Shown: positions 39,286 to 42,200 of the stretch, one piece after another
Position numbering within the stretch: the first letter of the stretch is position 1
Layout: every line of letters starts with the position of its first letter
NCBI RefSeq assembly: GCF_057098645.1
Contig: NZ_CM169472.1
Reading direction: 5' to 3' (one strand)
Length of the DNA: 64,000 nt
Made by a program: the position numbers

Positions 39286-42200
39286 TGACACTTTTCGGTT
39301 TACTGTGGTAGAGTAACCGTGAAGACAAAATTTCTCTGAGATGTTCGCAAGCGGGCCAGTCCCCTGAGCCGATATTTCATACCACAAGAATGTGGCGCTC
39401 CGCGGTTGGTGAGCATGCTCGGTCCGTCCGAGAAGCCTTAAAACTGCGACGACACATTCACCTTGAACCAAGGGTTCAAGGGTTACAGCCTGCGGCGGCA
39501 TCTCGGAGATTCCCTTCTTATCTGGCACCAGCCATGACGCATCTACCAGAACTCCCACTGATATTATCCCGACAAGAAATCCGCAAAATGATTCGGCAAC
39601 GTCGTCGTGCGTTAACGCCGGAACAACAGCAGGAAATGGGTCAACAAGCCGCTACCCGGATGATGACTTATCCCCCGGTGGTGATGGCACATACGGTCGC
39701 TGTATTCCTCTCTTTTGATGGCGAACTCGACACCCAGCCACTCATAGAACAACTCTGGCGCGCCGGTAAGCGCGTATATCTTCCAGTTTTGCATCCCTTT
39801 AGTGCCGGTAATTTGCTGTTCCTGAATTACCATCCGCAAAGTGAACTGGTGATGAACAGGTTGAAGATCCATGAGCCAAAACTGGATGTGCGTGACGTGC
39901 TACCCCTTTCCCGATTAGACGTGTTGATCACACCGCTGGTCGCCTTTGATGAGTACGGTCAGCGCCTGGGAATGGGCGGAGGTTTTTATGATCGGACCTT
40001 ACAAAACTGGCAGCACTATAAAATGCAACCGGTGGGTTATGCGCATGATTGTCAGTTGGTGGAAAAACTCCCCGTTGAAGAGTGGGATATCCCTCTTCCT
40101 GCGGTGGTTACACCGTCGAAAATCTGGGAGTGGTGAGGGCGACACACCTGCATCGCCCTGATTGACATCGTTGATTCTTTAACCTAATTTAGTGAGTAAG
40201 GGTAAGGGAGGATTGCTCCTCCCCTGTGACTGACTGTTAATAAGCGCTGAAACTTATGAGTAACAGTACAATCAGTATGATGACAAGTCGCATCATAACC
40301 CTTCTCCTTCAAGCCCTCGCTTCGGTGAGGGCTTTACCGTTACAGCCCCATGCTGCCCTGCTATCGTAAACTCTCTTTAAATAAGCACAACGCATTGATC
40401 TACCTTTAAATTTTTTCTTCGAGCGCACTCGTAAAACGTCATGTAAGACAGACACACATTGCAGGGATAAGGGATGAATTACGGCAGTAAACGTGGGCGA
40501 TGAAGTGTCTATCAAATGATCGGTTCAGGGCGATACATCCCGCATCGCCCTGATTGACATCGTTGATTCTTTGACCTAATTTAGTGAGTAAGGGTAAGGG
40601 AGGATGACTCCTCCCCTGAGACTGACTGTTAATAAGCTGGGAAACTTATGAGTAACAGTACAATCAGTATGATGACAAGTCGCATCATAACCCTTCTCCT
40701 TCAAGCCCTCGCTTCGGTGAGGGCTTTACCGTTACAGCCCTGTGCTGTCCTGCCATCGTAAATCCCCATTAAATAAACACAACGCATTGATCTGACTGTG
40801 ATTTATTTTCTGGAGCAGACTCGCAAAGTAGAATGCGCAACGCGGCAACGGTGTGGAGAAGGGATAAAAAAACGGGCAAGTCAGTGACCTGCCCGTTGAT
40901 TTTCAGAGAAGGGGAATTAGTACAGCAGACGGGCGCGAATGGTACCCGGAATAGCTTTCATTGCCTGCAGCGCTTTTTCGGCAACGTCTTCGTCGGCTTC
41001 AATATCAATAACCACATAACCCATCTGGGCGGAAGTTTGTAGATATTGCGCGGCGATGTTGACGCCCTGCTCGGCGAAGATTTTGTTCAGCGCAGTTAGC
41101 ACGCCCGGACGGTTTTCGTGGATGTGCATCAGACGACGCCCACCGTGCAGTGGCAGCGAGACTTCCGGGAAGTTCACCGCAGAGAGCGTTGAGCCATTGT
41201 CAGAATACTTGATCAATTTACCCGCAACTTCCAGGCCGATATTCTCCTGCGCTTCCTGAGTCGAACCGCCAATGTGTGGCGTCAGAAGGACATTGTCGAA
41301 TTCACACAGCGGAGAGGTAAATGGATCGCTATTGGTCGCTGGTTCCGTCGGGAATACGTCGATTGCCGCCCCCGCCAGATGTTTGCTCGCCAGCGCATCA
41401 CACAGCGCCGGAATATCCACCACAGTACCGCGCGAGGCATTAATCAGCAGCGAGCCGGGCTTCATTAGTGAAATCTCTTTCGCACCCATCATATTTTTGG
41501 TGGACGGATTCTCTGGTACATGCAGACTCACCACATCGCTCATATTCAGCAGGTCAGAAAGATGCTGTACCTGAGTGGCGTTGCCCAGCGGCAGTTTATT
41601 TTCAATATCATAAAAGTAAACATACATTCCCAGCGATTCAGCCAGAATGCCCAATTGCGTACCAATATGACCGTAGCCGATGATACCCAGCTTTTTGCCG
41701 CGCGCTTCAAAAGACCCCGCCGCCAGTTTGTTCCACACGCCACGGTGCGCTTTAGCATTGGCTTCCGGCACGCCGCGCAATAGCAGCAGCAGTTCGCCAA
41801 TCACCAGCTCCGCAACAGAGCGCGTATTTGAGAACGGTGCGTTAAATACCGGGATCCCGCGCTTTGCCGCCGCATCCAGATCAACCTGGTTTGTTCCGAT
41901 ACAGAAACAGCCAATAGCGACCAGCTTTTCTGCGGCGTTGATCACGTCTTCAGTCAGATGGGTACGGGATCGCAGGCCGATGAAGTGGGCATCGCGGATG
42001 GATTCTTTTAATTGTTCATCATCCAGCGCGCCTTTGTGAAATTCGATGTTGGTGTAACCAGCTGCACGAAGGCTTTCCAGCGCCTTTTGGTGCACGCCTT
42101 CTACCAGCAGAAACTTAATCTTGTCTTTCTCCAGCGATACCTTTGCCATTTACCCAATCCTGTCTTTTGAAATGTTGTGTGCGGATTTGCGTCCGCCTTT

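What the first reader, a model, noticed from the sequence alone, without database searches (positions are those of the whole stretch)
40629..40688. Second Ibs toxin copy is an S17P variant
Copy 1 encodes MMRLVIILIVLLLISFSAY and copy 2 encodes MMRLVIILIVLLLISFPAY. The cognate antisense Sib regions also differ at several positions (for example ggattgctcc versus ggatgactcc, and taagcgctga versus taagctggga). This is the kind of divergence that lets each Sib repress only its own ibs.
Basis: partly seen in the sequence, partly recalled or inferred. Interest (0 to 1): 0.35.

Follow-up and report, generated by a model that had tools for sequence, protein, structure and literature searches.

The report
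Tandem sibC/ibsC toxin-antitoxin copies
The window holds two intact side-by-side copies of the known E. coli Sib/Ibs small-RNA/toxin module; the "S17P variant" is the commonest natural allele of this gene, and it changes only one of the antitoxin RNA's two known target-recognition sites, so the two copies probably still cross-protect.

Summary
Window 40237-40296(-) encodes MMRLVIILIVLLLISFSAY and 40629-40688(-) encodes MMRLVIILIVLLLISFPAY. Each ORF lies inside an Rfam SIB_RNA hit, within a 392-bp tandem repeat between fau (ygfA) and serA. This is the sibC/ibsC locus of an E. coli O145:H28-type chromosome, and RefSeq already annotates both ORFs as ibsC.

The two 141-nt Sib RNAs differ at six positions:
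- +17/+18, in the P2 loop
- +30
- +49-51 (GCU versus UGG)

The +49-51 triplet is the S17P codon read on the other strand. It is also the G49CU51 core of target-recognition domain 1 (TRD1), which Han et al. 2010 mutated to re-target SibC.

TRD2 (+99-115) and everything from +52 onward are identical. Han et al. showed that changing one TRD alone does not abolish repression. My site energies agree: TRD1 is -12 kcal/mol for cognate pairs and about 0 for non-cognate pairs, while TRD2 is -15.7 for all four pairs. The "each Sib represses only its own ibs" reading is therefore only partly supported, and cross-repression through TRD2 is expected.

Among 5,426 complete E. coli genomes, the P-type allele occurs in 2,790, the S-type in 2,164, a G-type in 1,844, and a two-copy locus in at least 1,857. 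This is ordinary, already-known biology.

The parts
40162..40190 (+). Sib copy 1 promoter (TTGACA, 17-nt spacer, TAATTT)
   Evidence: Read from the sequence. It is covered by the first positions of the Rfam SIB_RNA model and is nearly identical to K-12 sibC upstream DNA. The strict consensus scan did not call it.
40198..40338 (+). Sib RNA copy 1: a 141-nt SibC-type antitoxin sRNA carrying the S-type TRD1 triplet (GCU)
   Evidence: Ends placed by homology to annotated K-12 sibC (L001:1052-1192); it differs from K-12 only at +30. Rfam match of 134.6 bits. The MFE fold reproduces the P1/P2/P5/P6/J1-7/P7 model.
40237..40296 (-). ibs copy 1 CDS, MMRLVIILIVLLLISFSAY (identical to K-12 IbsC)
   Evidence: The O145 reference annotates it as ibsC, WP_010723220.1.
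40198..40356 (-). ibs copy 1 mRNA (159 nt; inferred)
   Evidence: Extent inferred from Han et al. 2010: a 159-nt ibsC mRNA with an 18-nt 5' overhang beyond the Sib 3' end. The numbering was checked against their G50/G51/G53 to C110/C109/C107 pairs.
40246..40248 (.). Copy 1 TRD1 core triplet: Sib +49-51 GCU, antisense to ibs codon 17 AGC (Ser)
   Evidence: It matches the G49CU51 of Han et al.. It lies in the P5 apical loop, with unpaired probability 0.98.
40213..40216 (+). Copy 1 P2 apical loop, UUGC
40296..40312 (+). Copy 1 TRD2 (Sib +99-115, UAACCCUUCUCCUUCAA), antisense to the ibs SD/start region
   Evidence: TRD2 limits are taken from Han et al..
40400..40535 (.). Inter-copy spacer, a marker of the two-copy state
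   Evidence: It aligns poorly to the serA-proximal flank. It is found in 1,857 of 5,426 complete E. coli genomes.
40554..40582 (+). Sib copy 2 promoter (TTGACA, 17-nt spacer, TAATTT)
40590..40730 (+). Sib RNA copy 2: 141 nt, carrying the P-type TRD1 triplet (UGG) and P2 loop UGAC
   Evidence: (137.6 bits). It is identical to the sole Sib at this locus in strain 203740.
40629..40688 (-). ibs copy 2 CDS, MMRLVIILIVLLLISFPAY (the reported finding)
   Evidence: The O145 reference annotates it as ibsC, WP_071525914.1.
40590..40748 (-). ibs copy 2 mRNA (159 nt; inferred)
   Evidence: Placed by homology, as for copy 1. The upstream ibs promoter region matches K-12.
40638..40640 (.). Copy 2 TRD1 core triplet: Sib +49-51 UGG, antisense to ibs codon 17 CCA (Pro)
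40605..40608 (+). Copy 2 P2 apical loop, UGAC
40688..40704 (+). Copy 2 TRD2, identical to copy 1
40871..40897 (-). serA terminator hairpin; right boundary of the locus

Best explanation
The fau(ygfA)-serA intergenic region of this E. coli O145:H28-type chromosome carries two intact, tandem type I toxin-antitoxin modules of the sibC/ibsC kind. Each module has a constitutive ~141-nt Sib antisense RNA on the + strand. That RNA fully overlaps a 19-aa hydrophobic Ibs toxin gene on the - strand.

Copy 1 is the K-12 allele (Ser17, Sib +49-51 GCU). Copy 2 is the P-type allele (Pro17, Sib +49-51 UGG), which is the commonest allele of this locus in E. coli. The gene and its antitoxin are the two strands of the same DNA. 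The toxin's residue-17 codon and the core of Sib target-recognition domain 1 (the P5 loop) are therefore one and the same triplet, so S17P is the protein-side reflection of a TRD1 specificity change.

Each Sib should recognise only its own ibs through TRD1. TRD2 (antisense to the ibs translation-initiation region), P1, P6 and the terminator are identical, so either Sib should still bind and repress the other ibs mRNA through TRD2. The pair is best described as semi-redundant: a private TRD1 and a shared TRD2, not two orthogonal systems.

Shown here: sequence, anatomy, allele identity, population frequency and predicted energies. Inferred: transcription of both copies, toxicity of the P17 peptide, and actual cross-repression.
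For: - Identity: Rfam SIB_RNA hits of 134.6 and 137.6 bits. The ORFs are exact. The locus is ssrS-fau-[ibs x2]-serA, as in K-12 sibC/ibsC, and PGAP names both ORFs ibsC.
- Anatomy: six differences at +17/18, +30 and +49-51; +52 to +141, including TRD2, is identical. MFE folds put +16-19 and +48-55 in apical loops and +107-113 single-stranded.
- Experimental precedent: Han et al. 2010 defined TRD1 as +46-68 and TRD2 as +99-115. G49CU51 to UGC re-targets TRD1. Single-TRD mutants still repress ibsC, and only the double mutant fails.
- Site energies with accessibility: TRD1 is -11.9/-11.8 cognate against -0.3/-0.4 non-cognate; TRD2 is -15.6 to -15.8 in all four pairs; the P6 loop is -8.6 to -8.9 in all four.
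- Calibration: the TRD1 loss between the copies (11-12 kcal/mol) equals or exceeds that of the experimentally non-cross-reacting SibC/ibsD pair (9.7). The TRD2 loss is 0, against 8.5 for SibC/ibsD.
- Copy 2 is functional rather than decaying: the same Sib/ibs is the only copy in strains 203740, NDM5 and MS8320. P-type TRD1 occurs in 2,790 of 5,426 genomes. K-12 IbsB and IbsE also have Pro at this position, and IbsE is described as a membrane-depolarising toxin.
Against: - Han's assays used plasmid-expressed Sib RNAs, so at native levels loss of TRD1 alone might matter.
- TRD2 needs a particular structure (P1 plus a P6-loop contact). The U30 in copy 1 alters the predicted P3 stem, with unknown effect.
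- The P2-loop difference could add some discrimination, although Han et al. regarded that contact as non-productive.
- My energies are a simplified collinear-window model, not a kinetic model of kissing-complex formation.
- No expression or toxicity data exist for this strain.
- The original specificity paper (Fozo 2008) and the IbsC mutagenesis paper (Mok 2010) could not be read.
Confidence: 0.72

Rival explanations
1. One reading: the two modules are fully orthogonal. The loop differences (P2 loop and TRD1) suffice for each Sib to repress only its own ibs, as for the K-12 paralogues.
For: TRD1 pairing is predicted to be abolished between the copies. Five of the six differences fall in two apical loops that contact the target in probing experiments. 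Almost no genome carries two copies with the same TRD1 triplet: 2,790 P-type places in 2,790 genomes, 2,167 S-type in 2,164 records and 1,845 G-type in 1,844 records. That fits selection for distinct TRD1s. A small variable region is enough for discrimination in the zorO/orzO-zorP/orzP duplicate.
Against: TRD2, P1 and P6 are identical. SibC mutated only at +49-51 still repressed ibsC in vivo. K-12 paralogues that do discriminate differ in both TRDs. The absence of same-triplet tandems reflects only three clonal arrangement classes, so it is not many independent events.
Confidence: 0.18
2. The codon-17 change is selected at the protein level, giving a toxin with altered activity or target, and the change in the antisense RNA is incidental.
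For: A review of Mok et al. 2010 states that C-terminal residues 6-19 of IbsC are needed for toxicity. Ser to Pro is a non-conservative change near the C-terminus.
Against: Position 17 is the most variable residue of the family: S, Q, P, A, P in K-12 IbsC/A/B/D/E, plus G at this locus. Pro is encoded by CCA, CCC and CCG in different paralogues, so the nucleotides vary even where the residue does not. The alleles at this locus differ at two or three bases of the codon within an otherwise near-invariant ORF, which fits selection on RNA pairing.
Confidence: 0.08
3. Copy 2 is a decaying duplicate (pseudogene) whose S17P change inactivates the toxin.
For: None beyond the fact that it differs from the K-12 reference.
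Against: The ORF, SD, both promoters and the terminator are intact, and its Rfam score is higher than copy 1's. The identical module is the sole copy in many strains and the majority allele overall.
Confidence: 0.02

Closest known systems
E. coli K-12 sibC/ibsC (b4446/b4665), type I toxin-antitoxin, Rfam RF00113
   Same: Same locus (fau-serA), same 141-nt Sib and same 19-aa toxin. Window copy 1 differs from K-12 SibC at a single base (+30) and encodes an identical IbsC.
   Different: K-12 has one copy and the window has two. Copy 2 carries UGG instead of GCU at +49-51 (Pro17) and UGAC instead of UUGC in the P2 loop.
SibC1d, the engineered TRD1 mutant of Han et al. 2010 (G49CU51 to UGC)
   Same: The same three nucleotides are replaced in an otherwise SibC backbone with wild-type TRD2. 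Window Sib copy 2 (UGG) is one base from SibC1d (UGC).
   Different: Copy 2 is a natural allele, also differs in the P2 loop, and has its own matching ibs target in cis.
Tandem fau-serA Sib/Ibs pairs of O157:H7, O55:H7, NCTC86, O111, O121 and other strains
   Same: Same two-copy architecture with a ~392-bp period at the same locus, and the copies always carry different TRD1 triplets. Fozo et al. 2010 counted seven Ibs genes in O157:H7 Sakai, against five in K-12.
   Different: Those strains carry P17 (or L16P17 / A5P17) plus G17, and their serA-proximal copy also differs in TRD2 (113C>U) and at +61. The window's S17+P17 combination with identical TRD2 is rare (about 49-55 of 5,426 genomes).
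K-12 tandem paralogues sibA/sibB and sibD/sibE
   Same: Tandem Sib/Ibs modules in one intergenic region, with variation concentrated in TRD1 and TRD2.
   Different: Those pairs differ in both TRDs and at many other positions, and they are reported not to cross-react except at ibsA. The window pair differs in TRD1 only.
zorO-orzO / zorP-orzP duplicated type I locus of EHEC (Wen et al. 2014, PMC3919570)
   Same: A tandem duplicated type I toxin-antitoxin locus in which a short variable region of the sRNA sets which toxin mRNA is recognised.
   Different: It is an unrelated family, and the antitoxin is divergently encoded with only 18 nt of complementarity, so one variable region suffices. Sib has two independent recognition domains.

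Membership tests
Sib antitoxin RNA (Rfam RF00113 SIB_RNA) | Match to the family covariance model above the gathering score | tested here: met
   134.6 bits (40162-40312) and 137.6 bits (40554-40704) against a gathering score of 56; both are full-length 1-147/147 matches.
Sib antitoxin RNA (Rfam RF00113 SIB_RNA) | Secondary structure with a P1 closing stem, P2/P5/P6 hairpins, a single-stranded J1/7 and a terminator hairpin | tested here: met
   MFE folds of both copies and of K-12 SibC give this architecture. Unpaired probabilities are about 1.0 for +16-19, +48-55 and +107-113.
Ibs/Sib type I toxin-antitoxin module | An 18-19 aa hydrophobic ORF on the strand opposite Sib, fully overlapped by it, with an SD and ATG | tested here: met
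   19-codon ORFs at 40237-40296(-) and 40629-40688(-) lie inside the Sib regions. GAAGGAGAAGGG lies upstream of the ATG in both (sequences).
Ibs/Sib type I toxin-antitoxin module | Location at one of the three conserved E. coli SIB loci (here fau/ygfA-serA, the sibC locus) | tested here: met
   The ssrS-fau-ibs-ibs-serA order matches K-12 and O145 annotation.
Ibs/Sib type I toxin-antitoxin module | The peptide is toxic when over-produced, and toxicity is relieved by the Sib RNA | not testable with these tools
   Inferred only. Copy 1 is identical to the experimentally toxic IbsC. P17 also occurs in IbsE, which is described as toxic.
Ibs/Sib type I toxin-antitoxin module | Both RNAs are transcribed (Sib constitutively, ibs from its own promoter) | tested here: inconclusive
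   Promoter hexamers are conserved with K-12, but the strict consensus scan calls none, and no expression data are available.
Mutually orthogonal (non-cross-reacting) Sib/ibs paralogue pair, as K-12 SibC versus SibD | TRD1 (+46-68) divergent enough to break the contiguous helix | tested here: met
   Three consecutive mismatches at +49-51. The TRD1 site energy falls from about -12 to about 0 kcal/mol. The duplexfold loss is 11-12 kcal/mol, against 9.7 for SibC/ibsD.
Mutually orthogonal (non-cross-reacting) Sib/ibs paralogue pair, as K-12 SibC versus SibD | TRD2 (+99-115) also divergent (Han et al.: both TRDs must change to lose repression) | tested here: not met
   TRD2 is identical in the two copies. 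The TRD2 energy is the same in all four pairings.

The most novel reading that the evidence does not exclude
The Sib +49-51 / ibs codon-17 triplet may behave as a hypervariable specificity cassette under diversifying selection. At one locus it exists as GCU(S), UGG(P) and UCC(G) on otherwise near-identical backbones, and it appears reassorted between fau-proximal and serA-proximal backbones. Tandem copies essentially never share it: 0 of 2,790 P-type genomes carry two P copies. The window's rare S+P pair, with a private TRD1 and a shared TRD2, would then be a natural semi-orthogonal intermediate. In it, TRD1-only divergence would already give physiologically meaningful discrimination at native expression levels, and the toxin's residue 17 would be dragged along by antitoxin specificity.
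Probability: 0.2. Interest if true: 0.35.

Novelty: already known. Interest (0 to 1): 0.12.

Why it matters
It matters little beyond confirmation. The Sib/Ibs family, its tandem copies, its strain-to-strain copy-number variation and its two-domain recognition mechanism are all published, and RefSeq already annotates both ORFs as ibsC.

There are two modest points of value. First, this natural allele pair reproduces almost exactly the engineered TRD1 mutant of Han et al. It is therefore a ready-made test of whether one recognition domain suffices for insulation at native expression levels. Second, it shows clearly how an overlapping antisense gene couples an amino-acid change in a toxin to a specificity change in its antitoxin.

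Tried and rejected
- Fozo et al. 2008 (the original Sib/Ibs specificity and copy-number paper), the Fozo/Hemm/Storz 2008 review and Mok et al. 2010 (IbsC mutagenesis) are not held. Statements about cognate-only repression and C-terminal requirements therefore rest on secondary citations.
- The consensus promoter scan found no sigma-70-like site in 40100-40930. The Sib and ibs -10 hexamers (TAATTT, TACGAT) and the ibs -35 are too weak for its thresholds, so promoters are assigned by homology only.
- Energy windows of up to 30 nt were uninformative, because the longest window always wins for a perfect antisense pair. I switched to windows of 14 nt or less confined to each contact region.
- The first whole-locus megablast suggested that nearly all genomes 'cover' the two-copy query. 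This is an artefact of joining pieces that overlap in the subject. I replaced it with a spacer-specific query and with 51-nt allele-specific queries in which every 28-mer seed must include the triplet.
- I considered and rejected the pseudogene reading of copy 2 and the idea that S17P is a rare or derived mutation.
- The ACS Omega peptide paper and the mBio sRNA-interaction paper gave nothing on S17P or on Sib cross-talk.
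Full report
**Observation**

The finding's coordinates are exact. Window 40629-40688 on the minus strand translates to MMRLVIILIVLLLISFPAY*. The upstream copy, 40237-40296(-), translates to MMRLVIILIVLLLISFSAY*. The quoted DNA strings are present.

The two ORFs lie in a tandem direct repeat of 289 nt (40147-40435 and 40539-40827, period 392, 90% identity). Each is overlapped on the plus strand by a full-length Rfam RF00113 SIB_RNA match of 134.6 and 137.6 bits, against a gathering score of 56. This is not chance.

**Context**

The gene order is ssrS (6S RNA, 39330-39513), fau/ygfA, the two modules, then serA on the minus strand. This is the sibC/ibsC locus of E. coli.

- K-12 has one copy here (sibC 141 nt, ibsC).
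- The window is essentially identical to O145:H28-lineage chromosomes: 99.9% over the locus, 99.991% over 32.8 kb and 100% on the flanks.
- In those genomes PGAP already annotates both ORFs as ibsC: WP_010723220.1, the K-12 sequence, and WP_071525914.1.

**Anatomy**

I placed the Sib ends by homology to K-12 sibC, giving copy 1 at 40198-40338 and copy 2 at 40590-40730. The numbering is anchored by two strings that Han et al. quote, G49CU51 and C107UCCUUC113, and both fall where expected.

The two Sib RNAs differ at six positions:

| Position | Copy 1 | Copy 2 |
|---|---|---|
| +17/+18 | UUGC loop | UGAC loop |
| +30 | U | A |
| +49-51 | GCU | UGG |

From +52 to +141 they are identical.

ViennaRNA folds reproduce the published P1/P2/P5/P6/J1-7/P7 model. 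In that model +16-19 is the P2 apical loop, +48-55 the P5 apical loop and +107-113 the single-stranded J1/7.

The ibs mRNAs were taken as 159 nt with an 18-nt 5' overhang, following Han et al.. They carry three further differences in that leader. Divergence between the copies is 4% in the transcribed region, 14-17% in the ibs leader and promoter, and 34% beyond. The transcribed core is therefore conserved, and five of the six changes in it lie in the P2 and P5 apical loops.

**Mechanism, from experiment**

Han et al. 2010 (PMC2943612) mapped two independent target-recognition domains in SibC:

- TRD1 spans +46-68 (the P5 loop) and targets the ibsC ORF.
- TRD2 spans +99-115 (J1/7) and targets the translation-initiation region.
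- Changing G49CU51 to UGC let TRD1 pair with ibsD.
- A SibC changed in only one TRD still repressed ibsC. Only the double mutant lost repression.

They regarded the P2- and P6-loop contacts as non-productive.

The window's copy 2 therefore differs from copy 1 at exactly the validated TRD1 triplet, and it is one base away from their SibC1d mutant. TRD2, P1 and P6 are unchanged.

**Mechanism, from computation**

I used opening energies from unpaired probabilities plus collinear hybrid energies, in windows of 14 nt or less:

| Contact site | Cognate pairs (kcal/mol) | Non-cognate pairs (kcal/mol) |
|---|---|---|
| TRD1 | -11.9 / -11.8 | -0.3 / -0.4 |
| TRD2 | -15.6 to -15.8 | -15.6 to -15.8 |
| P6 loop | -8.6 to -8.9 | -8.6 to -8.9 |
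| P2 loop | about -2 | +4 to +5 |

I calibrated this against K-12 paralogues with duplexfold. For SibC/ibsD, which Han et al. showed does not bind or repress, the TRD1 segment loses 9.7 kcal/mol and the TRD2 segment loses 8.5. The window pair loses 11-12 kcal/mol in TRD1 and nothing in TRD2. For ibsA, reported to be repressed by non-cognate Sibs, the TRD2 losses are small (about 4-5 kcal/mol), which supports TRD2 similarity as a predictor of cross-talk.

In conclusion, TRD1 is private to each copy, TRD2 is shared, and cross-repression through TRD2 is the expected behaviour.

**Population context**

A query specific to the inter-copy spacer finds the two-copy state in 1,857 of 5,426 complete E. 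coli genomes. They fall into three classes:

| Class | Genomes | Spacer identity to window |
|---|---|---|
| Window / O145 type | 55 | ≥99% |
| O157:H7 / O55:H7 | 309 | 93% |
| NCTC86, O111, O121 and many others | 1,493 | about 84% |

I then used 51-nt allele-specific queries in which any 28-mer seed must contain the triplet:

- S-type (GCU): 2,164 genomes
- P-type (UGG): 2,790 genomes
- G-type (UCC, with +61C): 1,844 genomes

Sampled loci show the following:

- O157 carries ...SLPAY plus ...SFGAY.
- NCTC86, HCP4S3 and AR_0374 carry MMRLAIIL...SFPAY plus ...SFGAY.
- Strains 203740, NDM5 and MS8320 carry a single copy encoding exactly the window's P17 peptide. Strain 203740 has a Sib identical to window copy 2.

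The 'S17P variant' is therefore the majority allele of ibsC, and S17 is the K-12 allele. Only the S+P combination is uncommon, at about 1% of genomes.

Residue 17 is also the most variable position in the family: S, Q, P, A, P in K-12 IbsC/A/B/D/E. Pro is encoded by CCA, CCC and CCG in different paralogues. This fits selection on RNA pairing rather than on the peptide, but it does not prove it.

In the common P+G arrangement the serA-proximal copy also differs in TRD2 (113C>U) and at +61. Those pairs are therefore more insulated than the window's pair.

**Rivals**

- Full orthogonality (confidence 0.18) is not excluded, because Han's assays over-expressed Sib.
- Protein-level selection on residue 17 (0.08) is possible but less consistent with the codon pattern.
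- A pseudogene reading of copy 2 (0.02) is contradicted by its intact signals and by its being the sole copy in over a thousand genomes.

**Comparison with known systems and novelty**

Everything here belongs to the published Sib/Ibs family:

- the SIB repeats themselves
- tandem copies
- seven Ibs genes in O157:H7 Sakai, against five in K-12 (Fozo et al. 2010)
- TRD-based discrimination (Han et al. 2010)

A parallel exists in the duplicated zorO/orzO-zorP/orzP locus, where a short variable region sets specificity.

The membership tests for Sib RNA and for the Ibs/Sib module are met wherever they could be tested. The test for a 'mutually orthogonal paralogue pair' fails on TRD2. I rate the finding as already known, with low interest (0.12). 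The residual novel reading is a triplet 'specificity cassette' under diversifying selection, with this S+P pair as a semi-orthogonal intermediate. I give it a probability of about 0.2 and modest interest if true.

Noticed in passing
window 44588-46670 (+), 46663-47658 (+), 49953-50849 (-): Three genes downstream of argP are broken. scpA (methylmalonyl-CoA mutase) is frameshifted near codon 604. meaB/argK has an internal stop at codon 277. The LysR regulator srsR has an internal stop at codon 69. PGAP flags the same three as pseudogenes in O145 RM9872, which suggests decay of the scpA-argK-scpBC propionate pathway in this lineage.
   Followed up: partly
window ~52921 onward: Collinearity with O145 strain RM9872 ends at 52921. 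RM9872 carries a P4-like satellite island there, after argO (primase-helicase, Icd-like, ogr/Delta and Psu genes). The window lacks it and continues into mscS-fbaA-pgk-epd, as in RM12761, C325 and UTME-3.
   Followed up: partly
L005 (O157:H7 1130) and L006 (NCTC86), both Sib/ibs copies: In the common two-copy lineages the serA-proximal Sib has TRD2 113C>U. Duplexfold suggests asymmetric cross-talk. Sib copy 2 pairs with ibs copy 1 without loss, through a G.U pair, whereas Sib copy 1 loses about 4.8 kcal/mol on ibs copy 2.
   Followed up: partly
window 40213-40216 / 40605-40608 and homologous positions in L005-L011: The 4-nt P2 apical loop of Sib is hypervariable among E. coli alleles at this one locus (UUGC, UGAC, UGAG, UUAC, UUGU). 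It is combined apparently freely with the TRD1 triplet and with the +30 base, which suggests recombination among alleles.
   Followed up: no
E. coli genome search: One of the 2,167 S-type sibC/ibsC matches lies on a record classed as a plasmid. Three records have two S-type places. I examined none of these.
   Followed up: no
window 39330-39513 (+): The 6S RNA gene (ssrS) gives a full-length Rfam match of 139.8 bits, immediately upstream of fau as in K-12.
   Followed up: yes
L001 (K-12) 985-1390 versus window 40130-40925: K-12's single sibC region looks like a mosaic of the window's two copies. Its Sib 5' half is like copy 1 (UUGC, GCU), while +30, the ibs promoter and the serA-side flank are like copy 2. 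This fits loss of one unit by unequal recombination or gene conversion, but the direction was not resolved.
   Followed up: no
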